Shown piece by piece: positions 4,643 through 63,692 of a DNA stretch of 64,000 bases. The translations under genes were made by a program, and so were the position numbers. Numbering within the stretch: position 1 is the first letter of the stretch; each line of letters begins with the position of its first letter. The notes under the pieces are model-generated. The model saw nothing but the letters and a program-made list of their open reading frames with translations. It was not told the origin of the DNA and did not search any database. This DNA comes from Raillietiella orientalis (lineage: Eukaryota), in contig JAYWIR010000012.1 of NCBI GenBank assembly GCA_036172245.1, positions 744,001 through 808,000 on the forward strand, read 5' to 3'.

Positions 4643-6247
4643 TTTTATACCCGGGTGCGCCGGGGCGTTTATTTTTTTTTATAAAAACAAACAAGCAAGT
4701 GTAGATCTATTGCCCCTACAGCGTCCTAGAAAATGTTCTAGTAAAGAGTTTGAAATTGCCGAGTAGCAAGCACGCAGGCTGGCGAGTTCGACTCGGCAGC
4801 GGGGGGGAAAAGGACAAATAAAAACAAAAAGAAAACACTATTTACAAAAGCAGGGAGGAGTTGGGGAAGGGATCACGTTCCGCTGGGGTGGTCCTCTACA
4901 TCCTTTCCAGGATGCCGGCAAGTTCGGTCCGCATATGCCCCAAATGGGACCATCTGGCTGCCGTCCTTAGGAAAGCAGGGCGGAGCAGATGATGTCCCTG
5001 TCGCTCAGTCCACCAGTGGCGGTGCTACAGGCCGCCACAATCTCTCGTAGGCAGCAGAGGGCTGCAAGGGCTGCGGCAGGCCGAAGGGCGTCACGCACAA
5101 AGAGGCGCGTCAGAACGTCTCTAGGGTTGATCGTGGGTGCTCCTAGGGCCGTTGCGAAACGCAACCACAGAGGCCGGAGGGCAACACAGTCAGGAAGCAG
5201 GTGCGGGAGGGTTTCCCGTTCCCCGCACCTGACACAATTTGGGTCCACAACCCCCCTCGTCCAGTGCGAACGGCGGGCGTTGCTGGGGAGTCCCCAGTGC
5301 AACACCAGGAACGCCGACTCCTGCCACTTCAGGAAGAGGGCCCGGGTAGTCTTCAGCACCGAGGGCCACTCGAGTACATTCATGGGGATGCTTAGCAGCT
5401 CGCCCCGGCGCAATAGTCCCTTTGGTGGGCACTTGGGGTCGCAGCGTCTGTCAACTGGCCCGTGGTCCAACCACCTTGCTCTCTCTCTCTTCCAGAGATA
5501 CTGCACCGGACTTCCCATTTCGCCGGCTGGCTACTGCCCAGGTGCTCCCTGAGGTGGAACAGAGCCGTGGCAAGGGAGGTCCGCCCAGTGTCAGCCCATG
5601 CGCTCAAGGTGGGCTGCACGATGATGTCCTGCAGCGAGCGGCTCTTGTGATAGGAGCGCAGCATTCGCTGCCGCAACTCCGGGCTCGCTTCCTCGATCTG
5701 GGCCCACGTGCGAAGGCTTTCCTGCAACTAGGAAGTACCGTTCGCGGGCCGTCAGGAGATCCAGGTGTTCGTTCTGGTCAGCTTCGCCACTCGCCGAAGT
5801 GCCAGTTCGCAGTGGAACAGGTACCGGCGTTTGCGGCGCGCTAGGAAGGTAGACAGTCCCGCGCAGCCGCTAGCTCGCTGAACCAGGCGTCGTGCATGCT
5901 CGCACCAGCTGGTGCTCCATAGCTTCGCTACTAGAGCTAGAGTCCTGAACTGCAGCTGCAGTTCCAGCCGCTCCAGCGTGAGGAGGCCGAGGCCTCCATC
6001 GCGACGAGGGGCACATAAGTCCTTCAAACGGACTCGGGGCCACCCTCTGCCCCAAAGGGCGATTCTCAGGAGGTCCTTCGTCCGTTTTCTGACACCGCAG
6101 GGTGGAGGGCAAACAAAAAGCAAGGGGCGAAAAAGGGGGACCACAAACGTGTTCCACATCACGGCCCGTTCCGGCAAGAAAAACTTGCCATCCAGGAACG
6201 GGCCGATTGCTCTCTCGGCCTTTTGGAGGCAGCTAGACCACGCTTCC
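4643..6247 (-). mobile_element. L1/Tx1-like non-LTR retrotransposon, 3' half (RT thumb to CCHC and 3'UTR), disrupted
   Basis: ORFs 5752-6351, 5392-5727 and 4967-5518 give EAWSSCLQK...DLCAPRRDGGLGLLTL...CVRCGERETLPHLLPDC. Contains an internal stop and a frameshift. 3' terminal AATAAA-hairpin at 4643-4673. Confidence 0.9.
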
Positions 6248-6249
6248 GT

Positions 6250-8523
6250 CACGCACGGAGCTCTTCGTCGACGCATGGAGGCTTTTCGCGAAGCATGGAG
6301 GCGAACCTGTTCCACGCTAGAGCTCCAACACGAAAGGGGCTTGATGCTCACCGGGAATTCCGGTGAGTCCGTTAGCCATGCGACGGATGGTCGGATGGGG
6401 AAGGGAGCACTTGCGGTCGCTGTCGACTTGCGTAAAGCATTCGACAGCGTCGACCAAAATCTCCTGCTGGAGCTTTTGGAACGCTTAGGCTTCCCGGCCT
6501 CATTATTGGCCTATCTGCGCTCCAGCTGGCGCGATTCGCTAATCAATCTTACTTTCAGCGGGCAGACTGTTCACGGCGTGCCGGTGCGACGTGGGATACG
6601 GCAGGGAGACAGCCTGAGCCCCTTGCTGTTCAGTACCTACTTCGACAGGGAAACTCTGGCGCACCTGCCGCACGAATGCGCCGGAACGCCTGCGGTTTCA
6701 GCATATGCGGACGACCTTCTGCTACTGCTCCCTATGTCCACCCCGGCTTCGGCGGTCGAGAAGTTCTTCGACCTGCTGAATCGAGGAACCGGACTTACGG
6801 TGAACAGGGCGAAGTCGTCCGTGATGCCAGTTGGTGCAGCGTGGGCAGGGCAGCAGGGCTGGGTCCGTTTGGGGATCCCCAAGGTGAGGTACTTCAAGTA
6901 CCTTGGTGTGCCGTTGGGGGACTACTTCCCTGCAGAAGCTTGGTCCGGCTGCCTCCAAAAAGTAGAGACGGCTATCGGCCCGTTCCGAGGCGGCAGGTTT
7001 TTCCTGCCTGAACGGGCCGCGGTTTGGAACATGATCGCGGCTCCTCTCCTCCGTTCCCTGCTTTTTGTTTGCCCCCCCACAGAGAGAATTAAAAAGCGGA
7101 CAAAGGACCTCCTCCGTATCGCCCTTTGGGGCAACGGGAGGGCCCGAGTCCGCTTGAAGGACTTGTGCGCTCCGCGTCGGGACGGTGGTCTCGGCCTCCT
7201 GACATTGGAGCGGCTGGAGCTGCAGCTCCAGTTCCGGATTTTGGCACTTGTGCCGGAGTTGTGGTGCACCTGTTGGTGCGTCCCTGCACGTCTACTCCTT
7301 CAGCAAGCCACCGGCAAGACGGGACTTACGTCGTTTCTTGCACTCCATCGAAGCCGCATCAACCGATGTGGGCTTCAGCTACGGAGGGTGGCTGCGCTGG
7401 CAAGGAAAAATCAAGGATGGATCACCTGTCTCCCCGCGAACGGTAGTGCCTGGTTGCAGGAAACCGTTCGCACGTGGGGACAGTTCGGCATGCAACCCTC
7501 CCATCAGGAACGAAGGTTCCTGTTTGGGTGTTACAGAAGTTGCACGCTCCGTGAGATCCTGGAGGATCCTAAGAAGAGAGCGTGGTCAGGAAGAACCCCC
7601 CTCGCTGCTGCGCTGGACTCCCTAGTAGAACATCAGGACAGCGATGTTGCGGCGAAGTGGGAGGTTACAATAAAAATCTCCGGGAAGGAGAAGAAGCAGA
7701 GAGAGTGGAAGACGGGCCAGCTAACTGATGCTGCGACCCCGAGTACGCCTCCTAATGGACTTCTGCGCTGGGGCGCGCTGCTGGATGTTCCGATTGAACA
7801 TCTGAAGTGGCCCCCGATTCTTATGAACACTTCCATCCTCCCCCTAAAATGGCAAGGGTCGGCATTCCTGTTGCAGCACTGGGGACTCCCCTGCAACGCC
7901 CGTCGACACCACTGGACCTGGGGAGCGGTGGATCCCAATTGTGTAAGGTGCGGGGAACGGGAGTCCCTCCCCCACCTCCTAGTGGATTGTGTTGCCCTTC
8001 GGCCACTTTGGTTCCGCTTTGCCGCGGCCATCGGTATCCCTTGCAGCAACCCCAGGGACGCACTAAAAGCCTTCTTCGTTGCCGACGCCCTTCGGCCAGC
8101 GTCCTCGATAGCAGCCTTGTGCTGCCTTCGTGGGATCGTCGCCGCCTGGAGCACGGCGACGGGAGGACCTAGCGATCAGGAAGCCATCCAGTGCGCCTCC
8201 GAATTCCTGAGGAGGGCGTCGCGATGGCCCCACCTGGATGTTCACAACAAACAAGAGCTTGCCAGCATCCTGAGAGAGATGATGCGGCCCCAGCAGCAAC
8301 AGTGATCCCTTCCCGTTCCCTCCCACCCTTTGTTTTTTTTTGTTAAGTTTTTTTGTTTTTCCCCTTTCCCCTGCTGCCTTGGTGGACCGTACCGGTCTAG
8401 AAACCGGTGAATTGGCAGGCGCCGCGGTTCTTAGCTTCTGGCTGGAGCATTGCCACAGCCATTAATAATTTGCTTACAAAGTTTATTTTTTTAATAAACG
8501 ACTCGGAGAATTCCGGGTGGAAA
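6250..8523 (+). mobile_element. 5'-truncated L1/Tx1-like retrotransposon lying antisense inside the minus-strand element
   Basis: Open RT and C-terminus: AVDLRKAFDSVD, GIRQGDSLSPLLF, AYADDL, YFKYLGVPL, CVRCGERESLPHLLVDC. Stop at 8305, T-rich 3'UTR, AATAAA-hairpin end at 8493-8523. Confidence 0.92.
6398..8305 (+). CDS. ORF2 fragment (reverse transcriptase core, thumb and C-terminal CCHC zinc finger), open frame
   Basis: Sense portion of ORF 5912-8305, with canonical non-LTR RT motifs DxxKAFD, QGDxLSP, YADD and KYLG. Confidence 0.85.
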   Translation, partial: GKGALAVAVDLRKAFDSVDQNLLLELLERLGFPASLLAYLRSSWRDSLINLTFSGQTVHGVPVRRGIRQGDSLSPLLFSTYFDRETLAHLPHECAGTPAVSAYADDLLLLLPMSTPASAVEKFFDLLNRGTGLTVNRAKSSVMPVGAAWAGQQGWVRLGIPKVRYFKYLGVPLGDYFPAEAWSGCLQKVETAIGPFRGGRFFLPERAAVWNMIAAPLLRSLLFVCPPTERIKKRTKDLLRIALWGNGRARVRLKDLCAPRRDGGLGLLTLERLELQLQFRILALVPELWCTCWCVPARLLLQQATGKTGLTSFLALHRSRINRCGLQLRRVAALARKNQGWITCLPANGSAWLQETVRTWGQFGMQPSHQERRFLFGCYRSCTLREILEDPKKRAWSGRTPLAAALDSLVEHQDSDVAAKWEVTIKISGKEKKQREWKTGQLTDAATPSTPPNGLLRWGALLDVPIEHLKWPPILMNTSILPLKWQGSAFLLQHWGLPCNARRHHWTWGAVDPNCVRCGERESLPHLLVDCVALRPLWFRFAAAIGIPCSNPRDALKAFFVADALRPASSIAALCCLRGIVAAWSTATGGPSDQEAIQCASEFLRRASRWPHLDVHNKQELASILREMMRPQQQQ

Positions 8524-10234
8524 TCGAATGCTTTTCGCAGATCGACTGCGACCGCGAGGGCCCCCTCGCGCTCCCGACCATCTCGCGAACCACCAGCGGA
8601 CGTCCCGCAACTCGGGGTGCCGACCGTATTCTTTTCATCTACTCTATACCGCTGGAACTCGAACCAGGTGTTCGCGAAGAGCAGGTTGGCGTCCATGCTT
8701 CGCCCGGGAACAGCGTATGTCTGTTCCGGGCTGATGAAGCTTTCCGCCATCCGCCCCATTCGTTCCGACCATAGCTTCGCAAACAGCTTGGCGTCCGCGT
8801 TTGAAACGGTGATCGGACGCCAATTGCTGAGGTTCCGTAAGTCTCCTTCCTTCGGGAGAAGACGCATCCGTGCCGATCGGAAGGAGGCGGGAACGTCGCC
8901 TGCCTCCCGGATCAGCAGCGTTAACCGCTGCACCAGGGGGGCAAGCTCCGCCGCGAAGCATTGAAAAAACTCCGCGGGCAGGCCGCCCTCCCCCGGTGAC
9001 TTCCGCCTTTTGAGCTTCCCGATTGCGGTGATGATTTCACCCATCGTGAAAGGCTCATCCAGGCGTGCTCTCTCTTCCTCCCCGATCGCCGGGGCGCCAT
9101 CCGGAAGCAAAAGCCGGGAAAAATCCCGGTCCGGAGGCACCCTGGTGTACAGGGAGAAATAATAACCGCGCACTAGGCTGCTCACCTCTGCCGGGGCCGA
9201 GTGCTCCTGGCCTTCGTCGTCCAGCAGGTTGGGCGACCCGGATTGCCAGGCCTGCCTCTTGGCCCCAGCTTTAAATTGCGCCAGTCTTCGGGCGTCGGGT
9301 GTTCGGGTGTAACGACGGGCCTGCAGGTAAGCCCTCTCGTTCCGAATACCTCCACCAAATCCTTTCGGGAGACGGTCCATGGGGAACTGCTGGCAGAACT
9401 CTCGGACCGAGACTTTCAAATCGTCCCAGTCGTCGAGCGTCTGCAGGCTGAAACCTCGCAAGAACTCTCGGAGGTGTTCCGCTGCGCCTGGCTTCGTCAG
9501 CCCGTCCCCCGGTAGACGCCACGCCTGCGAGGGGGCCCCCTGTCGCGCGAGCGAGTGACGAATTCCACACGGGAGTGATCGGAGACGGCGGACTGTATCT
9601 TACCTCTCCTGCCCACGCGACAGCGCAGGTGATCGTCGAGGAAGACGTGGTCCACGCTCCGCTCCATCCCGGCGTCCCCGGCCAACAAGTTGGATGCGTG
9701 CACCGTGGCGCACATCTCGTTAACCGGGGTGGCCTCTGTCCTCGCCGCACCTGATAGCAGGCGAATATTAAAATCGCCGGCTATCAGGTGCGCCGCGCGC
9801 GCGCCTGCCTCCGACAGCCAGTCGCGCTGGAACGCACGGAAGAATGCCGTCCGTGCCACGCGCGCGTGACCGCCGCTCGGCACGTACACGTTCGTGACGA
9901 CGAGATCGATCGAGCCGGACCACCTGAAGGTGATTTGCCCGACCCGACCTGTCTCATTGAAACGAACTTTCCTCACCGAACGTTGTAAGGCAGGCTTCAG
10001 AAGGAAAGCGACCCCGCTCGTACGGCGGTGGCCGCATCGCCACATTAGCTGACCACCTGCTATCCTCTCGATCTCCCGCGCATGTTCTGCGGAGATCTCG
10101 TGGATCTCCTGCAGCAGCACAAGGTCGAAGGCTTGTAAGGTGGCAGCTATGTCTCGTCTCCTGCCGTCATCGCAAAGCCCGTTGACGTTCCAACTGGCGA
10201 TGCGGATTTGACGGCAGGTGGCGAGTCCCGGCAT
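8524..10234 (-). pseudogene. ORF2 5' half: APE endonuclease and RT N-terminal domains; one frameshift (~9535); truncated at DLRKAFD
   Basis: APE motifs IASWNVNGL, LVLLQEIH, VTNVYVP, IAGDFN, VDHVF and SDH. RT motifs KSPGEGGLPAEFF, LLPKEGD...NWRPIT and EQTYAVPGRS. Confidence 0.92.
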
Positions 10235-11795
10235 TACTGCTGGGAACGTGATGCAGCGTCTCCCGCCTCCCCATCGGGCGGGATGCTTTCTTGCTCGTCT
10301 GCAGTGGGGGGCGCCTCGACGACCCCCTCCGCTTGCATCGGCTGTGTCTCGACCGGGCGTGGGAGTTCAGGACTCGTGTCCATTCCTCCCACGCTCGCCG
10401 CACCCTCGTTTTCGGAAGATTCCCCCTCCTCGGAGGAAACGATCCTCCTCAGGTTACGGATTTTCCGTCCGGTCTTCCATGGGGTTGCAGACCCGAATGT
10501 TGCGTGTCCGGCCTCCGGGTCCGAGTCCGAGGTCCCGGTCCCCCTCCTTTCGGCCGGACGTCGAGCCGCCTTCTTCTCGCCCTTTGCGGGTGATTGCGGA
10601 ACGGCGGCGGCGAGCTCGACGGCGGCTTTCGCAAAGTCCGCGCCAACGCGGCTTTCCCCCTCGTCGCAGCCCTCGGCTGCTGTTCGCACAGCGACGGGGC
10701 TGTCGGCGTTGTTGCACACGGCAACGGCCTGTTCGCATGTCACTTCGGCGTCTGTAAGGCGCTCCAGTGCGATCGTGCGTTTTTTCAGTCCCTGCTTTTT
10801 CGCGGGTGTCGCGAGTTTTGCAGGGACTTTATTCTTCTTTTTTAAGTTCCCTTTTTTGTAGCTGACCTTTTGCCAGTCCGGCTCTTCTCCTTCCGCCCCG
10901 GTTGCCTGCGTTTCCGCAGACGGGTGTTCGGCACGGCCTTTTCGGCTGGCTCCGGGTCAACCTGTTTTTCGGACGTTGGCCAGGGCTTGCCAGGCTTCTT
11001 TTTATTCGCGTTCGTGCCACTCGTGGCAGCAGCCAGCGCGCGCGGAGTCTTTTTCGGGCACATTTCTTCCGTGTGCCCGGTTGCCTCGCACTTGCGGCAG
11101 GTGATGTTGGGGCAACGTTTCTTCACGTGTCCCGTAGCATCACAGAACGCGCAGTATTTGGGTTTACCCAGATACCAGACGTCGACAGTATCTCCGTCGA
11201 CAACCAGTTTGTGGGGAATCCCCACGTCCTTGGCAACCGTGATGCGCGCAGCAGCGAGCCCGCTTAGAAGTCCGTCATAAGTACGGAGTCTGTTGGGTTT
11301 CGCCCACAGTGCGTGCACGGTGCCGAATTTGCTCAATTCAGCCCTGACGGCACTCGGGGGCATCCGTAGGGTGATTCCGCAGAGGTGAACAACTATTGAG
11401 TTGTCCACCGGGACAGGAAAGATCTGGCGGCCTTCGATCCTAGCGGGGGTTCGCAGCAGTCTTTGCGCCAACCCTGCTTCTTTGCAGGTCATCTCGAAAT
11501 GCTGCCCCCCGCTGCGGATGGAGAGACCCAACAGATCCTCCTTGTTGACGTTCAAACGGTGCAGCTCCTACTCAAAGGAGCGCGCCACACGATCATCGAA
11601 TACCCGGCCTACCTTAAACAGCAGGCTGGGATTGTAATTATAGGCCTTGTAGGCCTGGGCCTCGGCCATGGCCGCTGCAGATGGCTCTGCGACCACGGCG
11701 CTGTAGTCCCTCGCTGGCGCGGGGGATGAAGCTTTAGGGGCTAGTGCCCTCACCTCCATGGGGACGGGTGACGTTCGACCGTCGCCCCCCCACAT
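10234..11795 (-). pseudogene. ORF1 (gag-like, two CCHC zinc knuckles) of the L1/Tx1-like element; in-frame TAG at 11568-11570 and a frameshift at ~10935-10965
   Basis: CAFCDATGHVKKRC and CRKCEATGHTEEMC follow an RRM-like region (VVHLCGITLRMPPSAVRAELSKFGTV). ORFs 11568-11795 and 10842-11555 are in the same frame, and a -1 frame continues PDWQKVSYKK to the stop at 10234. Confidence 0.88.
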
Positions 11796-22700: not shown

Positions 22701-24503
22701 AGGAGATTACTGCTACAACGTTGCAATCTGATAACTGAAACACTTTCTATAGTCCTTTCAATGAAGAACATTCTACAGAGTTCAGAAGCACTTTCTTGCC
22801 TTCATCTGGCTCCAAAGGATTTCATTCTTGGATGTGACTGTATTCCTTTAAATTGGTTGTTCCATATGAAGTTCTTTCACTCAGCGCATCCTCGTGTTGA
22901 TCACAACCGATTAACAAGAAATCGGTCCAGAAGAAATGCTATACGCTGAGAACCAGCTCAGTAAAATTTCCTCTTTCCTCATCTTCTATGTGGAAAGAGT
23001 AACACACACAAGCAGGGTAGCTGAGCTGAGAGTCTGTTCTCTCTACTAGCGGCTGACCACCGATGCCGCCTCGAAACAGATCTTATTGTAGTTTCCATGG
23101 CAAAAACGGAACTGAAGAACCATTTGCAAAAATAAGTAGAAAAGATCATCCAACTGCATTCTGGAGACAGCCGAATGCAGTTAGACAGGTTGCTTGCCCT
23201 CAGAATCGCGAAAGCAACCGAGTTTGTTTGCTGATCATCCTCTTTGATCATGGAAAGAAATGCCCACGTTGTTGCTTCCCTTCTCTAAACTGTTTTAATC
23301 AGATCAAACTTTGCTTTTAGGTTAGGATTGCTGCCAACTCCATGAATCAACCCTTTTAGAAGAAGCAACGCAGACTTGCTACTGTCGGCTGTTCCCTCTC
23401 CTTTAAGACTCTCTTCAAGACGAGAGGAAAATCCTTTTTTAGCACATATCTGATAACGGCCCCCACAGCCTACTTGTTTGCGTTTCTTCTCACTGCAGAG
23501 GAAGCGTAGAAGTATGAAACTGCAGGTCAGTAACGCCGAGAGCAAGGTTTCCGTTTCCTGACGCTTCCGACATCCAAAAAAAATGCGAAAACGGCTTCAG
23601 TGTCAACCCTACTTCCAGCGACTTCTGAATGAACCAGAACAGAAGAAGCTGCACCCCAGATTTTCATCCTTGTCTTTGTGTTCGGAATTTTGGATACCCT
23701 CTGGACCTCCCCCCTCTCATCATCGCGCAGATACGGAGCAATGCCAAAGACCTTTCAACAGTCTTTGAGCCATGATCAACTCTTCGATGTATGACAAAGA
23801 ACCATTAAGAAGACACGCAATCCGAGTTCCTGCTGTAGCTTCGGAGATTCTCACAATCTCAGAGGAGCGCTGGTCGGTTTCGTGGACCATGTCCTCGTTA
23901 CCATTCGGAAGAATTGCTCATTTGCAGAATGCATATGAGTTCAGAACTTTGCGTATTGGCGTAAAGAAGCTCACCATCAAATGCTCTTTAGTAATGTGTG
24001 CTCCATACGAGAGCCATCAGGGAGAGCGTGACTCAGACTCAGACTTCGTTTAGTGCACCGTGGCAATACTCTCGGGACGAATGGAACCGATGAAAACAAG
24101 AGGCCACCATCAGGAAAACGAAACTCTCCTTTCGGTGCGCGCATGTCATATCTCTTTCTACCGTTTCATAATGACTGCAGTGTGACCACCTGTATGAGAT
24201 GCTGCCCTTGTCCTACTGGAAAGCAGTCAAATTAAAGTTTCGACGGTGGCGAAAGTGAGTTTGCATGAAATATAAGCAGTATTTAAACGCGTACAGTGCT
24301 TGGCAATCCTGAGGAGCACCCAAAGTGCGCGATGAGTTCAAGAAGATTTAAGATGAACGCAAGCATGCCTTCCATCTGAGGGTCCGTAAGTAGAGACATC
24401 CGGTAATGTACATGTGAATGCATTGAAGACAAGCAATGCTTGGTCCATCCTGCCATCTCCTCTTATCACAATGCACGTGAAGCTTTCTTAGAGTTCAGGC
24501 ATC

Positions 24504-33399: not shown

Positions 33400-36081
33400 G
33401 CGGCATTCAAAAGCGAAAATGCCACATGTCAGCTGCATCTGGTACAGAGTGACGGGAAGTAGCGACTTACAGGGTAGTCACTGCCTCCGCTCTTTAAAAA
33501 GGAGTAGAACACTTCAGCAAAATGTTTTCTATTGGCACGTCCTTAGGGGGTTCCGTGATCTCCACTGATTTGCGAGCGTAAGCGGAATACTACAGATTCT
33601 GGGTATTTTCCAATCATCCATTGGCGTCCTCGACCGAATTGTTTCTTCTTCCCAGGCACCCTTATTCGTGAGTTAGCAGGAGATCCATGCGTACTCCTGT
33701 GTCAAGGCAACCATCCACCGGAGATCATGACAGTTTGGGAGCAGTCCTAGGAGGCTATGAAGGAGGAACGATGTCGGTTCCCGGGAACAGGTGGTTCCAT
33801 TGGCATAGAATTTCTTTGAAAAACTTTAATAAGTGGTTTATTATTTTTCTACTTCTGCGATGGAACTGGCATTTCATGCCCATCATCCTCAGGAGGAAGG
33901 CCAAGATCACCATCCCAACGTGGAGCGCCCATGTTCTTCCAGAGAACGCGAACCGTTGCACTGACAAAAAGCTTTCCAGAGCAACCTCGGTGCGGCTTTT
34001 AAAGATTCTGGGCAAAGGACTAAGAATAATCAGGAGGGTACAGAGGTGACCACGAACGTGTTCCTTGTGACTGCGTGTTCCGGAAAGAGCAACTTGCCAT
34101 CCTAAAGCAGGCTGAGCACCACGCCTTCTCCGAAAAGAAACCTTCTGACCTTGCCTTGTGCTTGACCATGATCAACCACTCATTAAAGTTTTTGTCTCAT
34201 CTGACTTACTACTTATACGCAACGCACTCTGCACGAGTGCGAGTTCAGCAAGTAGACGATTTATGGCAGTCGATGAAGGATCTGTAGAAGACGCAGCGTT
34301 GCGGACTTACGTAGCCCAAAACTACAAATTTTCACTCCTCTTCAGCACCAATGGGGTGTTGTCCAGTTACGACAGGGATCTGCTCAGGAGGAGCTAAGCG
34401 TGTAGGCATGAGTGGACAACGGTGTGCAGAGCACTTCACCAAAAGTCAGCAACTACGAGGTAGTAAGCGACTTGGCAGAACATACCACGATTCATGCACT
34501 CCAGAGAGGTCCGAACCCTTTCAAGACGTTTCATTCTGTCTATAGGGGACTCGCCGCCGTTTGGCTCACCATGCCGAATCGCAGATCATTCCGAAAGCAG
34601 GTCGACTACGCGTCTGAATTGCAGAAGTTGTCTGCTCACACTTTGAAAGAAATTAAGTACCTGTCCACGGGTATCCCCAGTGATGGCGCTAAACAAGATG
34701 GGACTCAGACTGTCACCTTGCGTAATTCCTCGACTCATTGGCTCGTCGAACGCGTGACGAAAGCTGAAAATAGTGCTGATTTGCGCTCCGCGCCATTATG
34801 AGTGCAAGTACTGCGTCAACAAGGACATTTTTCCAAGGTGCTGCATGTCCGCCAGAAGACCTCCCTCCTCCGTTCTCTATTTTTTGTTTGTCTCACTCCA
34901 CCCCAAATTAAGACTAGAATGAAGGGTCTCCTGAGGAAAGCACTGTAGGGCTCTGTAGCTAACGACCGCAACCTGAACCATTGTGAGTTTCAGCTGCGAG
35001 ACTTGGCTGCCCTGGTGAGAGAAAATACCTGGATCTCCTGTCTCCCCGCAAACTAGACTACCTGGTTTCAGGAGTCAGTTTCCTCGTGGACAAAGATCAA
35101 TGGCTCCAGCTATGTGGACTTCTCCTGCCACCGTAGAGGCATGTACGCTGGCCAGCCCCTGCGGGAGATGGTTTCCAACTTGGTTCCAACAACTGCCTCA
35201 AAGGAGGCAGGAAAAAACAGTTGAAGGTGTGAACATCTCGGGAACTAGCGGACGCTGCGACCCCGAGTGTTCCGCCCAAGAAACTTGTGCGCTCGGGCGA
35301 ACTGCTGGGCATACCCCCAGTGGAGGTGAAGTGGCCCCCAACACATTGGGTCAATGGCACCCTTCCCTTGGCTTGGCAGGAGAAGGCGCTGCTTGTGTTG
35401 CATTGAAGACTCCTTTGCAGAGCACGCCTCTCTCACTGGACCCGTGGGACTGTAGATGCCAATTGTGCTGAGTGCGGAGAGCGGGAATCCTTCCCCCAGC
35501 TGATCATCGAGTGTGTAGTCTTCCACCCCATATGGAATCGACTGTCGTCGATTCTGAACATCTAGGTAGCCGACCCAAAGGCCATTTTCCTTCGCCTCCT
35601 GATGCAAGACGCTTCGCCAGGAGCCGCGTGTGTAGCAGTTGTCTGCTGCATACGCGGAATCCTGGACACATGAACTGCGTCGAGGAGAGGCCACAACAGC
35701 CGGGATGTCATTAACTGGGCAGCCGCCTCCATGGAGAAAGCTTCCCGATGGCACGGCTAAGGACTATTAGACCGACACTTGTCCGCATGCAAAATCGAAT
35801 GCTGAGGAGCAGCCGCGGCGAGCAGTGATCCTTTCCTTTCCCTCACCTACCCCTAAAACATTGCCCCTCCAAATTTTTTTGTTTTTTGTGTCTTTTTTAT
35901 CTGGTTTTCCCACCCTCTTTGCCTGAGAAGAGGACCTGACCGTCCAGCGGTCCGGTAGGCACAGGTGCTGCAAGACAGGCGGAGACACGTGTTCTGCCCG
36001 AATGAACATAAAGACTTTGTTATAAAATTTTACTCTGTTCAGATTTTAATAATAAATGCTCCGGCATATCCGGGTGAAAAA
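33400..36081 (+). mobile_element. Composite decayed L1-like ORF2 (old RT remnant plus better-preserved 3' end)
   Basis: KEIKYLSTGI resembles KYLG at ~34650. The 3' part has a WISCLPAN region, a C-terminal C(A/V)ECGE(R)ES motif at ~35465, TGATCCTTTCC at 35826 and an AATAAA-hairpin end at 36051-36081. Confidence 0.75.
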
Positions 36082-37329
36082 CCACCAGAAGAAGCTTGGG
36101 ACTCACGCAGTCGAATGCCCTGATCACGAAAACTGCGATCACGAGAGGACCAGGTTCCTCCGCCTGCCTGCAAGCACTTATTACCAGTTCTTCCGTGAGT
36201 TCTTTTCCTTGCAAACCTTCGCAGCGACCCGCTGCTGCAATCATATACAGGCTCATACAAGGAACAGATTCGACTTCACAATTATGCCTGAAAGAGCTTT
36301 GTTATACTCTGAAATGATAGAGGAATCCGCCAACTGCGCTGTCCACGTCCTGGAGAGCAGCTTAATGTCTCCATTCACCAGAGTAATCGGATGCCAACTG
36401 CCCAGGCTGCGCAGATCTTTTTCTTTCGGCAGGAGATGCACTCTGGCTAACCTGTAGAAGGTGGATACCTCGCTTCTGTCCCGGATCAGCATGGCCAGCT
36501 GAAGTACCAAGGCAGCTTGCTCTGCGAGGAAGGTCTGCTAGAACTCCTGGGACAAGCCGTCCTCCCATGGTACTTTTCTCTTCCTGAGCGATCCGATAGC
36601 AGCCATGATCCCCGCCACCGAGAACGGCTTTTCTAGGCACGCTCCTTTCTTCTCACCTATCACTATGGTGCACTCCTCCAAAAGTCGCTGAGGAAAGGCA
36701 TTCTCCACCGGTGTCCATGCGAACAGGTAGGAGTAAAAGTCGTGCACTGAACTGCAGACAACCGAAGGTGCCGAGCACTGCTGACCTTGGTCGTCCAGCA
36801 GGAAAGCTGCCCCGGACTGCCACATCTGGCGCCTGGGTCCGGCTTTGAAGTCGGCCAGTCTTCGGACATGGAGGTGTTTACAGAGGAAGCCTTTAGATGG
36901 AAAGGTTCTTCTGTAAGTGCACACGAGCTTTAAGAATCAAGATAGGAGGAGAGCTAATGTGAAGTGTTCGTAGATCTTTCGGACCAGAACCTCGAACAGG
37001 TCTCAATCCTCGAACTTTCGAATAGCAAAACCACGAAGGAAGCTGGAGGGAATTTTCACAGGTTCCGGGTGGCTCAGCTCATCCCCAGGCATCCTCTTTA
37101 TATTGATAAACGGCCTTTCCAATGGAAGCCGCAGCTCGAAATTGAGCCTATGATGTACCTGCACGCGATGTACCCTCATCCATTTGTCATCCGACAGCAG
37201 GCGGTCACTGACTCTGGTGTCACAGAGTTCGGGCATCGACTACCGAGGTCGCAGAAAAACTGTGTCATTCCGCTCTGACGCAGCCTATCACTTGGTGCGC
37301 AAATATTTGTGACGACAAATTGGATCGAG
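36082..37329 (-). mobile_element. L1-like ORF2 fragment (mid-APE to RT AFD motif), decayed
   Basis: FVVTNICAPS, RRQMWQSGAAFLLDDQGQ, LLPKEKDLRSLGSWHPIT and VIRAFDCVS. Confidence 0.85.
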
Positions 37330-38500
37330 TTTATCACCCAGATATGCCGGAGCGTTTATTATTAAAATTTTTACAGAAAAATTTTTTGATAAAATCTTTA
37401 AATTATGTTTAGGCGGAACTCGTGGTTCTTCCTGTCTTGGGACACTTGCAGTTACCGACCTGCTGGTCGGTGAGGTCCACTCTGAGGGCAATGGGGACGG
37501 GAAAACTACAAAAAAATGAAAAAAGAAATTAAACAAACATAAGAGGAGAGGGCAATGTTTTTTGGAAAGGGGAGAGCAGGGAAGGGATCACCGTTTGCCG
37601 CGAGTGGTCTTCTGAATCCGGTTGTGGATGCGGACGAGTGCTGATCGTAAACTGCTTAGCCGTGACCTTCGGGAGGCTTTCTCAATGTTGATTGCAGCCC
37701 AGTGAATGGTGCTCCGGCTGTTTTGACCTCTCATAGACGCAGACCATTTTGCCAGCATTGTGCGCATGCAACAGAGAACTGCTACAAACGCGGCTGCTGA
37801 CAGGGTGCCCTGTGTCAGGAGGCTACGAAAAATGTCCTTCGGGTCGCCAACCGGAATGTTCAGGATCGACGAACGTTAATTATTGGGTGCGGAAAGGTTT
37901 CTCTTTCTCTGCAACTGCACAAAGGACATCCGCACTTCCAGTGAAAGAGGCGTGCTCTGCACAGGATTCCCTAATGCAGGAACAGCAGCGCCGTCTCTTG
38001 CTGCTCCAGGAAAAGGGTGCCGTTATCCCTACGCGCTGGGGGCCACTTCACCTCCTCCGGAGGTTTTGCAAGCAGCTCACGCCAGCAGAAGTCCTTTAGG
38101 AAGAACGCTCGGAGATGGAGCGTCCGCCAGCTTCCGAGTTGTCCTTCCGAGCTGTCTACGCCTTTAACGATTTTTTCCTGCTTCTGATGAGGCAGGACAC
38201 TTCCCACATTGCCCGTCCGTCGCTGTCCCTAACATTCCTGAGGGAGGGCAGCACTGGGGCAAGGGGGGCGGAGGAAGCCCACAGCAGCTTGCAGTGGTTC
38301 ATAATTTCCTGCAGGAGCTGACGAGAGTATCTTCCCCGTCGGAGGCAGCTGTACTTGGCCTCGCTCGAGTAGTTCATCTTAACCCACGCGGAAACTGACT
38401 CCTGATGCCAGGCGGTACAGTTCGTGGGGAGGCAGGAGATCCACGTATTTTTCCTTACCAGGGCAACCATCTGACGCAGTTCATGGCCGCAGCTGGATCG
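37330..38500 (-). mobile_element. L1-like 3' end fragment
   Basis: KNTWISCLPTN, WRELLAKPPEEVKWPP and QETALLFLH; GGGAAGGGATCA at ~37579; terminal AATAAA-hairpin at 37330-37360. Confidence 0.85.
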
Positions 38501-40593: not shown

Positions 40594-42600
40594 TTTATCA
40601 CCCGGTCACTCCGGAACGTTTATTATAAAAACAAACATACATGTGTAGCGCCATCCCCCCTGCATCATCCGAAAACGCTCAGAGCATGCCAAGTAACCGG
40701 CACGCAGGCCAACAAGGTTCGCCTCGGCAGAGGAAGGAAAGAGAGCAAGCAAAAAATAAGAAAACAAAACGTATATACGTGCTTAGGGAAAGGATCACCG
40801 GGTGCTGGAGAGCGTCCTCTGGATGCTTTCCAGGACGCCGGCAAGATCCTTCTGAGTATGTCTTAGGTGCAGCCATCCAGCTGCCATCCTCATGGAGCTC
40901 AGAGCGAAGCACATGGCGTCCATATAGGGCCATCCTCTGTCGCGTAGCTCCAAACCACCACAATCACACGTAAGCAGCAACAAACTGCTGGGGATGCGGC
41001 AGGCTAAAGGGCATAGCTCACGAAGAGGCGTTTTATCAAGAACCTGGGATTGTCTGTCGGTGCACCAAGGGCTGTTGCGTAACCCAACCGCAGGGACCAG
41101 AGGGCAACATACCCAAAAAGCAGCTGCAAAGGGATTCCCGTTACTCACATCTGTAACAGCTGGGGTCCACAGCCAATCGGGTCCAGTGAGAGCAGCGCAC
41201 GTTGCACGGGAGAACCCAGTGCAACCGCAGGAGTGTCACTCCTACCGCTTCAAGGGGAGAGCTTGATTGCTCTGTAGCGCTGGAGCCACTCAAGGTTTTC
41301 CTGTGTGATTCCAAGCAGCTCATCCCAGCGCAATAGTCCTTTCTGTGGGACAATTGGAATTGCAGCCTACATCAAATCGTCTGTGGTTGAACTACCGAGT
41401 TCCTTTGTTTCCTTCGGGTTGAAAGACCTATTTCGAAACTGACCTTCCATTTGGCTGGCTAGTTACTGCTCAAAGTGCTCCCTTATGAGAGCAGTGTCGC
41501 AGCTAGGAAAGTTCTTTGCGCCCACACACACGTGGTGAACTGCACCATGACGTCCTCCAGCGAGCGATTGCTGAAGGAGTGCGGCAGTCGCTTCCGCATC
41601 TCCGTGTTCGCTTCGTTGTTCTTGACCCACGTGCTGTCGGCTTCCTGCAGCCGGTACCACCGTGCGCGAGCCGGCAAAAGATCCAGATGTTGTCCTGGTG
41701 AGCTTGGCTACTCATCGGAGCTCCAGTCCGCAACTGGAAACGTTGCGTCCCTCCAGAGATGAAGACGGTCACGTGTAGTCGATGGCTCGCTTGAGCAGGC
41801 ATCGTGCGGACTCGCACCAGTTTGTGTTCCGAAACTTCGCCACTAGGGCAAGCGTCCTCCACGAAAGCTGCTGCCCCAGGAGCTCCAGCATCACAAGGCC
41901 GAGGTCCCCGTCACGACAGGGAACACACAAGTCATTCAGGCGGACTCGGGGCCTCCCTGTACCCCAGAGAGCAATTCTCTGGGAATCTTCTGTCTTTTAG
42001 TGATACTCGGTGGAGGAAACTAGAAGCAAGGGGTGGGACGGGGAAGCCATAAACGCGTTCCACACCACGGCCCTTTCCGACAAGAGAAACTTGCTATCTC
42101 GAAACAAGCCGATCGCCAACTCTGCTCCTCCTTTTGAAGGCAGCTGGATCACGCTTCCGCCGGGGAATGGTTCCACAACGGCTTACCGAGCTGATTAAAG
42201 TACCAATCCGAGTGGATCGTCAAGCAAATCCCGTGCAGTCGCCCTGCAGACACCAATACGACTGCTGACACGGACGATTTCTCCCTGTTCACCTCCAATC
42301 CTGTCCCATATCTTGACAGCTCAAAAAAATCTTGGAGCTCTCACGCCGTAGTAGACATGGGGAGCGGCTGTAGAGGATCGTGCACATACACCGAAACTGC
42401 AGGCGTAAGGGGCCACTTCACCCCTTTCGGGGGTACTGTGAGCAGCTCGTTCCAGCATACAAGTCCTGTATGCGGAAGACTTGGAGTCGCATTGTCCGCT
42501 GGCTGCCGAGGTGTGCACGCTTTGACAAGTTTTTTCCTACCTCCAATTGGACGGGACACTTCCTAAGTTGCCGGATCTCTGCTGCTCATAGCGTTCCTTA
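40594..42600 (-). mobile_element. L1-like 3' half (decayed) plus an adjacent second fragment
   Basis: Homology to the RT thumb (LKDLC.P..DG.LGL region, ~41890-41960) and the C-terminus; GGGAAAGGATCA at ~40786; terminal AATAAA-hairpin at 40594-40624. Confidence 0.8.
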
Positions 42601-44199: not shown

Positions 44200-45735
44200 T
44201 TTTCACCCAAGTAAGCCGGGGCTTTTATTATTAAAAATTTTACAATTATGTTTTTTATAATAAAGTCCTGTCGTCTGTACTAGTGTTTCAGTCAGAACAC
44301 CTTGTTCGTATTGTCTTATGCACTTGTCCTTTCCGACCCGTATGCCGGTAAGGTCCTCTTCACTGGCAAAGGGGACGGGAAAAAGAGAAAAAACAAACGA
44401 ACAAACAAAAAAAGAAAAGCGCTTGGGGGACAATGTTTATGGGGAAGGGATCACGGTAGCCGTGGGGAGGCCTCTGCATCTGGTTCCGGATGCGAACAAG
44501 TGCTGGCAGGATTTTCCTCAGCCGGCGCCAACGGCTAGCCTTCTCCATGGAGATGACTGCCCAGTGGATGGCATTCCGACTGCTGGGGCCACTTATCGAC
44601 GCGTTCCACTTATCCAGTATTCCTCGTATGCAGCAGAGAACTGCTACACACTCGGCACCTGGCAGGGAGTTCCGCATCAGGAGGAGACGAAAAATGTCTT
44701 TAGGGTCGCCCACCGCTACGTTTATGGCCGACGAGAGTCGATCCCACGTTCGGCTGAGGACAACACATTCGATGAGTAAGTGGGGGAAGGTCTCCCTCTC
44801 CCCACACTCTGTACAATGGGCATCCAGTCTCCCCAATGTCCAGTGAGACAGGCGTGCTCTGCTCCAAAGTCCCCAATGGAGCACAAGCAGCGCCGTCTCC
44901 TGCCAATCCAAAGGGAGAGTGCCACTGTCCCAATACGCCGGGGGCCACTTCACCTCCTCCGGAGGCATGTCGAGCAGCTCGCCCCAGCGCACAATTCCAT
45001 TTGACGGGACGCTCGGGGTTGTAGCGTCCGCTAGTTCCCGGGACGTCCATGCCTTCATTAGCTTTTCCTGCCTCCGATGAGGCAGGTCACTTCATTCGAT
45101 GCCTCCTCTTGGCTGTCCTTGGCTACTCTGAGGGAGGGCAGAACGGGGGCAAGGGGGTGAATGAAGCCCACAAAAGCTTTTGTGGGTTGGAGACGATCTC
45201 CCTCAGGGGCTGGCCAGCGTTCCTGCCTCGACGGAGGCAGGGGAATTCCACCTCGCTGGAGCCGTTGATTTTTGCCCACGCGGAAACGGACTTTTGGAGC
45301 CAGGTAGTTTAGTTTGCGGGGCTTCAGGAGATCCACGGGCTGTTCCTCACCAGGGCCACCAAGTCCCGTAGCGGAAACCCATAATGGTTCAGTCTACCGT
45401 CGTTGGCTACTAGGATTGAGGTCAATCCGTTGCAGCCGGTTGCCCTGTGGGCGAGGAGTCGTGTGGGCGCACACCATGGTGCTGTCCAATATTTTGCCTC
45501 AAGGGCAAGTTTTCTAATTTGAAGCTGACGCTCCATGCGCTCCAACGTCAGGAGACCAAGTCCACCGTCCCTGCGTGGAGCACACAAGTGTTTCAGTCGG
45601 ACGCGGGATCTCCGGTTACCCCAAGGGGCTTTCCTGATGAGGCCCCTTGTCCGTGTCCCAATTTGGAGAGGGTCGGGGCACACAAAAAGTAGAAGGCGAA
45701 GGAGGGTGACCACAAAAGCGTTCCACTGCATTGAT
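44200..45735 (-). mobile_element. L1-like 3' half (RT thumb to CCHC and 3'UTR)
   Basis: RVRLKHLCAPRRDGGLGLLTLERME and CTECGERETFPHLLIEC; terminal AATAAA-hairpin at 44200-44229. Confidence 0.9.
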
Positions 45736-46850: not shown

Positions 46851-47149
46851 TTCTTGAGGAATCTTCGGATCCCCAGAAGCAATAACAGAGACAGGATGAA
46901 ACGCCTCATCCAATGACAAATGAACTGAGAATGAAAAGAGAACACACCAGGTCAGAGAAAGTACCTCAAAGCTCGGGTTGCAAAAAATCACAAAAAATGC
47001 GATTGATTTGAGTTCGGTAAGCAAAAGGGTACCTGGAACCAAAGTAGGAAGGAAAGCAGCAAAGAAAAGAACTCACAGGACCTCTATTCTTATAGAACAA
47101 GGGAACGATCCCTACCAGAGCTCGCTACTAGTTTTCTGAAGAAAATAAA

Positions 47150-60810: not shown

Positions 60811-61245
60811 TCACGGATATTTAAGCTTTTTCAGGGAACGTGGAAGCTCCACATTTCGAATTGAGTGGGTACATTTATGAGAGTCGGGGGAATAGTGGAA
60901 CCGTTTTGCAGTAAAATCACATTGGTCACAAAAGCAAGTGGGAGTTAAAGCATGCATACGTGTCATATGGTGCTTCAGGTGACGGGAACTATTGTGCCTT
61001 TCTTCGGCTGAGGAAGCGAATTTACAGTCAGGAATAGGGCATGGGCAAGGACATGCAAGCGAAATGCTAACGTATGAACCACGGTCGGCGTCTAAAAAAG
61101 CGGGTTCCAAAATTGGTTTTTGAACTTCCATGGTTTCATTAAGTGGTGCTCTCATGTTACCAGAGTAACGGGGAACTTTCCACAAACAAGCGCTAACGTA
61201 GGTACGTGAGTGCATGTGAGCACTGCGTTGGGGATACAGGCGCAA
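60811..61245 (-). CDS. Short ORF with a C2H2 zinc finger followed by a CxxC...H-x-C motif (host zinc-finger fragment, or N-terminus of an RLE-type non-LTR element)
   Basis: CPIPDC-x-HLKHHMTRMH then CDQC...SHKC. No RT follows in the window. Confidence 0.45.
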   Translation of the reverse strand: MRLYPQRSAHMHSRTYVSACLWKVPRYSGNMRAPLNETMEVQKPILEPAFLDADRGSYVSISLACPCPCPIPDCKFASSAEERHNSSRHLKHHMTRMHALTPTCFCDQCDFTAKRFHYSPDSHKCTHSIRNVELPRSLKKLKYP

Positions 61246-61839
61246 CTCCAGCTCTGTTGCGCGCGGTAAGAGTTTGGCTTATGCGCGCCACGCGGTCGCG
61301 TCGCCATCTTTAAAAATCAGTGTTGCAAATAAAAAGCAAAAATTCACTAATCGATCAAAACTTTCGGTTAACACAATATTCCAGAAAGCACAGAAAGTGC
61401 TAGTTGTTGCTTGTATTGAGAATTGAAGCTCGAAACTAAGAGTGGAGATCTTGCGATGCTATGCGACGTCCTATTGTGAATCCATTCACGCGTTGTACTG
61501 ATGATTTTGCTTCCGACACATTACGAAAAGGAAAACAAAAACATTTTGGAAGAGATTGAATAGTTCTTCCAAAATATTAAGGTCAAAAGCAACATGGGAA
61601 TAAGTCTTACCTTGGCCAACCAAGAGCTTTCTAGTTGGACCATAGCGGCTGCGGACGGCCAAAGGAGCGCTCTTTTGTTTACCACAATAATCTCTGTATC
61701 ATCATGATTCCTTGTGAACAAGTAAAATACCTAAGTAAAATACACTGAATACAATATAAATACGTAAATGCTTGAAGAAAATTTCATGAAATTTACAATT
61801 AAACTGTCACCTACGGTAACGACACCGAGACACGTCCGC

Positions 61840-63692
61840 ACGTACAGGCTGACGCTGGCCAACTTGCCGAGTTCTTGGCCGAGAACTCCGGCCGTGGCCG
61901 CCTATGCTGACGACTTCTCCTGTTGCCCGTGTCCACCTCGGCGTCCAGTCTCGAAGACTTCTTCGAGCTGGTTCGCCGTGGAGCGGGCATGAGCGTAAAC
62001 CGGAGCAACAGCGTGGTCGTTTCAGTTGGTGCGGGGTGGGAGGGGCAGTCCGACTGGATCCGTCTGGGGATCCGGACCGCTACGTCTTTGCAGTACTTGG
62101 GCGTCCCGCTGGGGGACATCAGCCCAGTGGAGCGTGATCGGACTGCCTTCGGAAGTTCACGAATGCTTTAAACCCGTTCCACCAAGGCAGGTTCCTGCAG
62201 CCAAAGCGGGCCACAGCGCGGAACACCTTCGTTGGCCCCCCTTACGCTCCCTGCTTTTTGTTTGCGCGCCCTCCTACGCCGCCAAGCTCCAGACGCAAAG
62301 CCTGTTCAGAAACGTTCTGTGGAGACCCACGAGGTCGACGATCCTCCTCAAAGACTTGGCGGCTCCGCGTCAGGATGCCGGCTTGGGCATCCTGACGCTC
62401 TAGAGAATCGAGCTGCAGGCGCAGTTACGAATGTTGGCCCTGTGCGCCAAACTCTGGTCCACTCCGTGTTGTGCAGCCGCGCGCCTGCTATTGCGGCGCT
62501 GCACCGGAAGCGAAGGACTTCTGTTGCTCCGGCCAAATACGGAGCGCTCCACGAGAAACTTCGGTTTCCGCTGGAAACCGCTTTGCCTGCTCCTGGTAGC
62601 CCACGCATGGAACCCCTGCCTTCCAACGAACTTTAGCGCCTCTCAGCAGAATTCGTTGCAGATCTGGGCAAAGCAACAGGATGTTACGCTCTTGGAACTC
62701 CGTTGAGCCAACCTCTCCCCGTACTGTACGATGGATGAAGTCCCGAACATCCAGGAGGAGTGGACTCGCCTGGCAATCACGCCCCTCCTCGACGCGCTGT
62801 CAGCCCTCAGCACAAGTGATCACGGCTGTTTACCAGCGAGGTGGGAGGTCGCATGCAGCATTGCAGGAGCAACCCGACCCTTGGGCGGCTGGAGGTCTTG
62901 CGAGCTGGCAGACGCCGCCACGCCTCCCAACATCCCGAAGGGTTTCCTTCGGTGGAGTGAACTTTTGAGTGTGCCCCCGAAGAACTTGTGGCCCCTCCCT
63001 CCTGCTTGAACACTTCTGTGTTCCCTTTGAGCTGGAAACAGTACGTCATTATGCTGGTGCATTGTGCTTTTCACTCCAACCAGCAGACGAACCGTGTTTC
63101 CGGGAGAATTGTCTCCCTGAACTGTAAACGGTCTGGGGAAGTGGAAACGCTCCCGCAACTGCTGTTGGACTGAGTTGTTCTGCAAGGACTGTGGTGGAGG
63201 CTAACCTCATCTCTGCAGCACCAGAGGGACACCGCAAGAGACTTGGTGGCCGCTTCTTCACGCTAGGCGGACTGTCGTTAGGTGCTGTCATCGCCACGGT
63301 CTGTTGCACTCGAGCCATCGACAACGTCCACCGACCGCTGAAGAAGCAGGCGATTCGTCGACAGACCTCCGGAATAGCCTGCGAGAACATGACGTAGGCT
63401 TCCGAGTGTGTCCATCTTCCAGAAGACGTTAGGAGCGAGATCACCGGCTTCCATAGCCGGTTGTGAAGGAAAGTAAAGGTCAAACCAGAGACCCGTGTCC
63501 CCTCCTCTCGCCATATTTTGATTTCTATTTTTTATATGTGTATTTGTGGTCCCCTCCCTCCCGTTCCGGACTATCGGTTTATCGAACTGCATGTTGGGGA
63601 TCCGCCCCCTTCGTGTTTTCTGTATCTTTTGTCCGGGAACTCTGTTGCTGGATAGTTTAGCAATAAACACCCCGTCTCATCCGGGTGAGAAA
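61840..63692 (+). mobile_element. 5'-truncated decayed L1-like element (RT YADD to 3' end)
   Basis: TPAVAAYADD, LQYLGVPLGD, LKDLAAPRQDAGLGIL and ELADAATPPNIPKGFLRW; terminal AATAAA-hairpin at 63662-63692. Confidence 0.88.

What the first reader, a model, noticed from the sequence alone, without database searches (positions are those of the whole stretch)
4643..63692. Seven L1/Tx1-like copies end in a conserved AATAAA + CCGG hairpin + TG(A)AAA motif instead of a long poly(A) tail
Seen, in element sense: AATAAAcgcCCCGGcgcacCCGGGtataaaa (4673-4643); AATAAAcgaCTCGGagaattCCGGGtggaaa (8493-8523); AATAAAtgcTCCGGcatatCCGGGtgaaaaa (36051-36081); AATAAAcgcTCCGGcatatCTGGGtgataaa (37360-37330); AATAAAcgtTCCGGagtgaCCGGGtgataaa (40624-40594); AATAAAagcCCCGGcttacTTGGGtgaaaa (44229-44200); AATAAAcacCCCGTctcatCCGGGtgagaaa (63662-63692). 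The loops vary, and the stem changes are mostly G-U compatible, while the rest of the 3'UTRs have diverged. Known: 'stringent' LINEs such as L2-clade UnaL2/ZfL2 use a 3' stem-loop for RT recognition, whereas mammalian L1 uses poly(A). Inference: this family uses a stringent hairpin placed downstream of the poly(A) signal, or the motif is a Tx1-type specific target site.
Basis: partly seen in the sequence, partly recalled or inferred. Interest (0 to 1): 0.7.

Follow-up and report, generated by a model that had tools for sequence, protein, structure and literature searches.

The report
Tail-less LINEs with fixed hairpin end
A lineage of LINE-1-like jumping genes in this animal genome ends, with no poly(A) tail, exactly six bases after a small shared GC hairpin, while several families insert at their own spot inside relatives' genes: a real but partly precedented variation on how such elements copy themselves.

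Summary
The seven motifs are real (7 found, 0.01 expected) and occur 1,492 times genome-wide. They are the elements' own 3' ends, not target sites: target-site duplications (mostly 13-15 bp) start right after stem-TGA-N-AA (44 of 50 boundary-checked duplications), and 1 of 242 ends has five or more A's. The end is shared by families only 39-76% identical in reverse transcriptase. The terminal stem is invariant rather than covarying; its 'G-U compatible' changes look like neutral decay. A second hairpin 71-117 nt upstream does covary. Families have their own targets, often conserved coding motifs of sister elements: 148 of 230 family-A ends abut the antisense KAFD codons, often in R1-like tandems. 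Best reading: structured 3' UTR docks the enzyme and fixes where copying starts; the protein picks the target. Function untested. Precedents: monocot stringent L1s, R1, Tx1. This scan already noted both the tail and the cross-targeting on other DNA of this genome. New variant; interest 0.5.

The parts
4644..4673 (-). 3' terminal module (AATAAA, 3-nt spacer, CCCGG/CCGGG stem, 6-nt end) of copy 1
   Evidence: end defined by duplication offsets
4764..4785 (-). upstream CUGCG(U/A)-loop hairpin in the 3' UTR of copy 1
4644..6248 (-). copy 1: ORF2 residues about 762-1213 plus 3' UTR; either the far half of the host split at 8524 (with a deletion) or a separate 5'-truncated copy
6276..6289 (+). decayed 5' copy of the target-site duplication of copy 2 (9 of its bases still match the 3' copy)
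   Evidence: read from sequence
6290..8523 (+). copy 2: young 5'-truncated family-A1 element (ORF2 residues 550-1217, 95.5% identical to reference copy L042)
   Evidence: Pfam RVT_1 and zf-RVT
8493..8523 (+). 3' terminal module of copy 2 (7-bp stem, 4-nt loop)
8524..8537 (+). 3' copy of the 14-bp target: antisense of the host's KAFD reverse-transcriptase codons (ORF2 residue 592)
8524..11585 (-). host element split by copy 2: ORF1 with zinc knuckle (11585-10276), endonuclease and first half of RT (10270-8524)
35193..36080 (+). copy 3 (5'-truncated) ending in terminal module 36051-36080, inserted antisense in a host ORF2 near residue 604
36082..37330 (-). host ORF2 fragment (residues 265-544 aligned at 37095-36262) between copies 3 and 4
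37331..38495 (-). copy 4 (5'-truncated) ending in terminal module 37360-37331
40595..42159 (-). copy 5 (5'-truncated) ending in terminal module 40624-40595
44200..45725 (-). copy 6 (5'-truncated) ending in terminal module 44229-44200
61841..63691 (+). copy 7, family B, ending in terminal module 63662-63691
63692..63915 (-). host endonuclease region (ORF2 residues 12-87) hit antisense by copy 7 at the family-B hotspot, residue 86

Best explanation
The motif is the exact 3' terminus of a single lineage of L1-group (Tx1-like) non-LTR retrotransposons. SHOWN: every measurable copy ends 6 nt after the stem (TGA-N-AA), directly against an 11-17 bp target duplication, with no copied tail; the module is kept by families whose proteins and UTRs have diverged; each family has its own target, often a conserved coding motif of sister elements. 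INFERRED: the element is transcribed by RNA polymerase II, AAUAAA (24-25 nt upstream of the end, behind a U-rich tract) directs 3' processing at or just beyond this end; ORF2p binds the structured 3' UTR (the covarying upstream hairpin plus the terminal stem) and the terminal stem acts as a ruler that sets the first copied base, so any poly(A) is left uncopied. This replaces the poly(A)-to-T-tract pairing of human L1, which cannot work at targets such as TCGA or CTTC. Target choice is made mainly by the protein, which reads bases on both sides of the nick; the 5' duplication of a full-length copy regenerates the target and gives head-to-tail tandems.
For: Fixed end: 44 of 50 boundary-checked duplications start at offsets 0-3, 30 at exactly 3 (179 sites testable of 242); 31 of 52 at offset 3 vs 1 of 13 in a shifted control; 1 of 242 ends with an A-run of 5 or more. 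Motif-blind test: of 30 zf-RVT-anchored loci 21 carry the full module 424-518 nt downstream, 4 carry the stem with a mutated hexamer, 3 are interrupted, 2 unresolved, none has 10 A's. RT identity between 8 clusters 39-76%; all 31 genome rows form one branch (SH-aLRT 98, quick tree). Intact stems fold in 113 of 141 ends. Upstream hairpin: 93 of 110 cells paired vs 81.7 shuffled, 0 of 5000, with U-A/C-G and G-C/A-U swaps (22 clusters). Protein-level targeting: family A off-hotspot sites have G at -4 in 13 of 13, family B has A/C at -1 in 11 of 11. Precedent: conserved 3' hairpin in a monocot L1 lineage (PMC3472496); endonuclease swaps move specificity (PMC7265360 passage).
Against: The terminal stem shows no covariation beyond shuffles (1 two-sided change; 179 of 500), so it could be read as sequence, not shape. 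Only 4 of 7 window ends fold it cleanly. The exact upstream loop was found in only 88 of 193 elements, and relatedness of families inflates that shuffle test. No partner SINE found. The endonuclease lacks about 20 residues covering the loop that contacts target DNA in human L1, which makes purely endonuclease-based targeting harder to picture. No RNA or functional data.
Confidence: 0.6

Rival explanations
1. R1-like read-through: the RNA runs past the element end into the donor's target duplication, pairs with the nicked strand, and so sets both the start point (hence no tail) and part of the target preference; the hairpin only docks the enzyme. Compatible in part with the best explanation.
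For: Drosophila R1 has 14-bp duplications, tandem arrays at the 5' duplication and is proposed to use flanking RNA for annealing (PMC2718515 passages and section 15). Subfamilies differ at a wobble base of the target: A at +6 in 10 of 22 A1 vs 0 of 49 A2 ends, p=1.4e-6. All 22 full-length family-A 5' ends sit behind a KAFD-like 14-mer whose variant tracks the subfamily (sample enriched for tandems). The endonuclease target loop is missing.
Against: Preferences upstream of the nick (G at -4, 13 of 13) cannot come from a 3' RNA extension. No carried-over target sequence in any of the 50 boundary-checked insertions. Thirteen young, near-identical A1 copies sit at seven or more different target variants, and most target classes do not cluster on the tree. 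Nine of the ten A1 '+6 A' ends share one 14-mer, and those I could read are tandem junctions, so they are not independent host choices.
Confidence: 0.2
2. The hairpin is a 3'-processing signal, not an RT handle: it fixes a precise cleavage (standing in for the downstream element that a LINE cannot carry, or making an untailed end), and the RT just starts at the RNA end.
For: Fixed spacing of 3 nt between AATAAA and stem and 6 nt between stem and end in nearly all copies; sequence invariance suits recognition by an unchanging host factor; hexamer conserved with it.
Against: A normally polyadenylated RNA copied from its end would leave variable A tails, seen in 1 of 242; no Rfam family matches the window; an AAUAAA-directed but untailed RNA has no precedent that I found.
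Confidence: 0.15
3. The two CCGG boxes act as a DNA or single-strand sequence motif (binding site, terminator) with no pairing role.
For: No covariation; both arms contain the same CCGG word.
Against: Arms are complementary in the outer pair as well (C-G in 74 of 86 rows), loop length is held at 5-6 nt while its sequence varies (46 loop types in 158 sites), and family A1 extends the stem to 7 pairs.
Confidence: 0.04
4. The motif is the genomic target site.
For: Tx1-clade elements are often target-specific (PMC4494074 passages).
Against: It lies inside the duplications, even in insertions of 60-130 bp; 123 of 158 sites have collinear ORF2 upstream and 27 of the other 35 cluster with ORF2-bearing families; what follows it differs by family.
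Confidence: 0.01

Closest known systems
Stringent L1-clade LINEs of monocots (LINE1-1_ZM group) and Chlamydomonas L1-1_CR (Ohshima 2012, PMC3472496; first third of the text read; review PMC3747384 passages)
   Same: L1-group element with a 3' end far more conserved than the rest; hairpin proposed as the RT handle; covarying stem with conserved loop (as the upstream hairpin here).
   Different: Those end in poly(A) (224 of 233 flowering-plant L1 families do) and have partner SINEs. Here: an animal, no tail, an invariant stem with variable loop placed after AATAAA, exact 6-nt register, no SINE found.
Target-specific Tx1-clade LINEs: Tx1L in Tx1D, Keno, Kibi/Koshi, Tx1-Mar, Tx1-8_Crp (Kojima 2015, PMC4494074; passages and section 16; supplements not available)
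   Same: L1-group ORF2, target preference for other transposons, fixed orientation, tandem copies around one duplication.
   Different: Listed targets are DNA transposons, LTR elements, snRNA/5S genes and microsatellites; the SINEUs they move have poly(A). Here the targets are conserved coding motifs of sister non-LTR elements.
R1 elements of Drosophila (PMC2718515; passages and section 15)
   Same: APE-type, site-specific, invariant 3' junction, 14-bp duplication, tandem arrays by insertion into the 5' duplication, off-site insertions resembling the target.
   Different: R1 is another clade and targets 28S rDNA; R1 sometimes carries target sequence to off-sites, not seen here.
Zepp / ZeppL L1 elements of green algae (bioRxiv 2022.06.16.496473 passages; insertion into own copies is recalled, not read)
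   Same: L1-group elements piled in clusters.
   Different: One family per genome in the passages read; here many families with separate exact sites; L1-1_CR and Zepp end in poly(A) (table).
L2-clade stringent LINEs UnaL2, ZfL2 (PMC4176376 search listing only; passage)
   Same: 3' stem-loop next to the end, proposed function.
   Different: Different clade; they end in short repeats, absent here.

Membership tests
L1 group of non-LTR retrotransposons | ORF2 with N-terminal APE endonuclease, RT and C-terminal cysteine domain | tested here: met
   Pfam Exo_endo_phos, RVT_1, zf-RVT; model Z 24.4, rmsd 2.5 A over 207 residues to human L1 endonuclease 1vyb
L1 group of non-LTR retrotransposons | RT closest to L1 among solved retrotransposon proteins | tested here: met
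   human ORF2p E 3e-45 vs R2 proteins 1e-13
L1 group of non-LTR retrotransposons | 5' truncation and target-site duplications | tested here: met
   full length 5.56 kb with two ORFs
Tx1 clade | RT groups with named Tx1 elements | tested here: inconclusive
   no named Tx1 reference available; database hits at most 33% identical; Atlas clusters auto-named TX1 score 0.94; tree has only unnamed outgroups
Tx1 clade | target-sequence preference (over 20% of flanks in one sequence, Kojima's criterion) | tested here: met
   family A 148 of 230; family B 11 of 29 at residue 86-87
Tx1 clade | ORF1 with zinc knuckles (feature recalled, not from a call) | tested here: met
   zf-CCHC E 1e-4 in window ORF1; two knuckle-like motifs seen in family A ORF1, though that copy scored no Pfam family
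Stringent-type LINEs | conserved specific 3'-end sequence | tested here: met
Stringent-type LINEs | 3' stem-loop supported by compensatory changes | tested here: inconclusive
   terminal stem: none beyond shuffles; upstream hairpin: present
Stringent-type LINEs | 3' tail required for retrotransposition and bound by ORF2p | not testable with these tools
   needs reporter and binding assays
Stringent-type LINEs | partner SINE sharing the tail | tested here: inconclusive
   no tRNA in 60 loci; 6 of 158 sites unlinked to ORF2 families remain unexplained; sample is about a tenth of the matches
Relaxed mammalian-type L1 | poly(A) tail on copies | tested here: not met
   1 of 242 with 5 or more A's
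Relaxed mammalian-type L1 | A-rich target start (T-tract nick) | tested here: not met
   targets begin TCGA, ACA(A/G)C, C-N-Y-C by family
R1-type read-through priming | target sequence carried to off-site insertions | tested here: inconclusive
   none in 50 boundary-checked insertions; described as occasional in R1
R1-type read-through priming | 14-bp duplication and tandem arrays at the 5' duplication | tested here: met
   mode 14 bp, 16 of 47; L198, L196, L200

The most novel reading that the evidence does not exclude
A natural modular platform: one RNA handle (hairpin ruler, no tail) shared by many L1-group families, each retargeted to its own conserved coding motif in sister elements, with an endonuclease that has lost the loop normally used on target DNA, so that specificity is built elsewhere, in part by pairing of read-through RNA with the nicked strand. 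Copies would then inherit a memory of the donor's site, and families could evade their own attack by synonymous change (subfamily A2 carries A at -1 of its own KAFD site and mostly hits other families).
Probability: 0.15. Interest if true: 0.8.

Novelty: new variant of a known kind. Interest (0 to 1): 0.5.

Why it matters
How L1-group enzymes choose their RNA and start point without poly(A) pairing, and whether stringent recognition is ancestral in the group, are open questions argued so far from plant and algal cases. A young, intact, animal lineage with a 30-nt end of exact geometry makes them testable with few mutants. Many related ORF2 proteins that share one RNA handle but aim at different 9-14 bp targets, leave no tail and lack the usual target loop are also a useful comparative set for target selection and for precise, tail-free gene insertion tools.

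Tried and rejected
Target-site reading: rejected. G-U 'covariation': rejected as neutral decay plus ascertainment. Composite duplication as the sole cause of hotspots: rejected, since KAFD insertions have different lengths (198, 457, 858, 3399, 5535) and hosts of at least five clusters; some loci are segmental duplicates (L194/L197, L170/L171) and about half of the KAFD matches are tandem junctions (counted by eye in the first 100 rows), so 148 overstates independent host insertions. 5' transduction as the cause of tandems: not favoured (L198, L200), though L196's truncated first copy shows no matching 5' duplication. Target memory on the tree: weak. Whether the 14-mer before full-length copies is element-carried: unresolved, both test loci were interrupted. 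RNA runs: none listed, so no reads laid. Metagenome scan: 15 matches, none near an ORF2, taken as chance; no related species could be examined. Protein searches found no close relative. First endonuclease model was poor; the second was good but coordinates were not inspected. Rfam: no match. The RT tree is the quick version; the careful search did not finish. Seven paper searches gave no description of this tail or of LINEs aimed at sister ORF2 motifs; Repbase Reports, Kojima and Fujiwara 2004 and Christensen 2000 were not read and the supplement of PMC4494074 was unavailable, so prior description cannot be excluded.
Full report
Observation. The seven motifs are at the stated places. They are 7 of 41 AATAAA hexamers in the window; simulations give 0.01. 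In the window's own genome (G000, 210 Mb; the host is an animal, judged from a cytoplasmic actin gene) a strict pattern matches 1,492 times, reversed control 0. Each window copy has ORF2 sequence upstream in the same sense.

What the elements are. Full-length family-A copies are 5.56 kb with a short 5' UTR, an ORF1 with knuckle-like motifs and an ORF2 of about 1,190 residues carrying APE endonuclease, RT and zf-RVT domains. The best solved relative is human L1 ORF2p (E 3e-45, R2 1e-13); Atlas clusters auto-named TX1 score 0.94. Database proteins are at most 33% identical in RT, and all 31 genome rows form one long branch (quick tree, SH-aLRT 98). The 158 first sites fell into 44 3'-UTR clusters; RT identity among 8 clusters is 39-76%. 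Placement in Tx1 proper was not testable.

Terminus, not target. Among 202 sites, 52 gave a duplication: 31 begin 3 nt after GGGTGA, 8 at 2, 4 at 1, 4 at 0, 5 later; a control shifted by 60 nt gave 13, one at offset 3; lengths peak at 14 bp. With the search confined to the 5' homology boundary, 50 of 179 testable sites (of 242) have a duplication, 44 at offsets 0-3; offsets below 3 are mostly shared bases or tandems. The element therefore ends stem-TGA-N-AA. Only 1 of 242 ends has five or more A's. N is inherited (16 of 28 nearest neighbours share it in family B, shuffled 8.2; also in two other clusters, not significant in two small ones). In a motif-blind sample of 30 zf-RVT loci (four pairs look duplicated), 21 carry the whole module 424-518 nt downstream, 4 the stem with a mutated hexamer, 3 are interrupted and 2 divergent ones are unresolved; none has 10 A's. 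123 of 158 sites have collinear ORF2 upstream; 27 of the other 35 cluster with ORF2-bearing families and 2 more have ORF2 hits.

Is it a hairpin? Intact stems fold in 113 of 141 ends (median pair probability 0.90), but only 4 of the 7 window ends fold cleanly. On 86 distinct ends the five pairs hold in 96.3% of cells, with a single two-sided change, matched by 179 of 500 shuffles. C>T (17) and pair-breaking G>A (12) changes are about equal outside my strict pattern, so the G-U argument fails. The pattern of fixed arms and 46 loop types fits a stem but does not prove one. Relatedness inflates this test. Family B also has a stem just before AATAAA (seen).

The targets. Of 202 sites, 74 lie in ORF2 of another copy, at a few exact places: antisense residue 591-592 (18, family A), antisense 86-87 (11, family B), sense 179 (6), antisense 78, 319 and 1092 (3 each) (family A is over-sampled by design). 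Genome-wide 148 of 230 family-A ends are followed by the antisense of the KAFD codons, which is 4.1% of the RTCGA sites available in ORF2. Insertions there differ in length and host cluster. About half of these matches are tandem junctions (by eye). All 22 full-length family-A 5' ends found follow a KAFD-like 14-mer, 17 behind another copy's end (11 loci were picked as tandems). L198 reads host, duplication, 227-nt copy, duplication, older copy, and in L200 an A1 copy precedes an A2 copy, which indicates serial insertion into the 5' duplication, as described for Drosophila R1. In the window, copy 2 splits a host at KAFD and copy 7 hits residue 86.

How targets are chosen. Off-hotspot family-A sites keep TCG (12 of 13) and G at -4 (13 of 13, two being the same site hit twice); family B keeps A/C at -1 (11 of 11). 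Preference on the far side of the nick points to the protein. Yet the endonuclease is about 20 residues shorter between the DFN and IDH motifs (37-39 in 25 of 27 sequences vs 55-68 in 62 of 65 relatives; lead from e1-7633163), and a confident model (pLDDT 90.5; Z 24.4 to 1vyb) shows no strand pair there; in human L1 this loop matters for activity and specificity (PMC1950540 passages). Subfamilies differ at target base +6 (A in 10 of 22 A1 vs 0 of 49 A2), which could reflect RNA pairing, tandem history or host supply. Against RNA pairing: no carried-over target in 50 checked insertions and diverse targets among young A1 copies.

Mechanism. Most likely (0.6): a structured 3' UTR docks ORF2p, the terminal stem fixes the first copied base 6 nt downstream, any poly(A) made from the AAUAAA is not copied, and the protein selects the site. 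The end geometry and targets are shown; processing, docking and ruler function are inferred. Rivals: read-through pairing (0.2), processing signal only (0.15), sequence motif without pairing (0.04), target site (0.01).

Comparison and novelty. It works like a stringent LINE in its RNA end and like R1 or Tx1 in its targeting. Stringent L1s are described in monocots and Chlamydomonas but end in poly(A); tail-less L1 families are listed in that table as a minority (9 of 233, 5 of 15). A 3' UTR stem-loop is also claimed for human L1 (PMC5135761 abstract only). Tx1 families target DNA and LTR transposons. I found no paper on this tail or on LINEs aimed at sister ORF2 motifs in seven searches, with the gaps listed under Tried and rejected. 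The scan has noted both features on other DNA of this genome; I had reached both readings before looking, and these notes are not independent support. Verdict: new variant of a known kind, interest 0.5.

Noticed in passing
window:8524-8537; L045, L046, L054; genome-wide: Families insert at exact conserved coding motifs of sister elements (KAFD, DFN, endonuclease residues 78 and 86, zinc-finger region 1092); ORF1 also has hotspots near element positions 1120-1195 and 1393.
   Followed up: yes
L042:4369-5070 (-); window:9530-10219 (-): Endonuclease of all families lacks about 20 residues spanning the target-contacting hairpin of human L1.
   Followed up: partly
L044-L054, L071 (subfamily A2 copies): A2's own KAFD site has A at -1 and a different wobble pattern; none of 13 host flanks of A2 insertions read was A2 itself, while an A1 copy sits in an A2 host (L043). 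Possible self-avoidance; 2 of 49 A2 ends do match the A2-type site.
   Followed up: partly
L196:1-8301 (-): Triple head-to-tail family-A array; the first, truncated copy has no matching 5' duplication.
   Followed up: partly
window:6247-6302: Short 20-nt tandem repeat at the 5' junction of copy 2, overlapping the decayed duplication; may be a junction rearrangement.
   Followed up: no
window:1164-2863, 20539-22194, 52747-54332; 26534-28552 with 47034-48819; 23700-24373 with 49031-49697: Other dispersed, decayed repeats without ORF2 similarity or Pfam match in the frames tested.
   Followed up: no
L167, L168: Divergent zf-RVT elements whose 3' ends could not be resolved; may be a sister lineage without the module.
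   Followed up: partly
window:63642-63661; family B 3' UTR: A further 10-bp stem directly before AATAAA in family B, with what look like compensatory variants.
   Followed up: no
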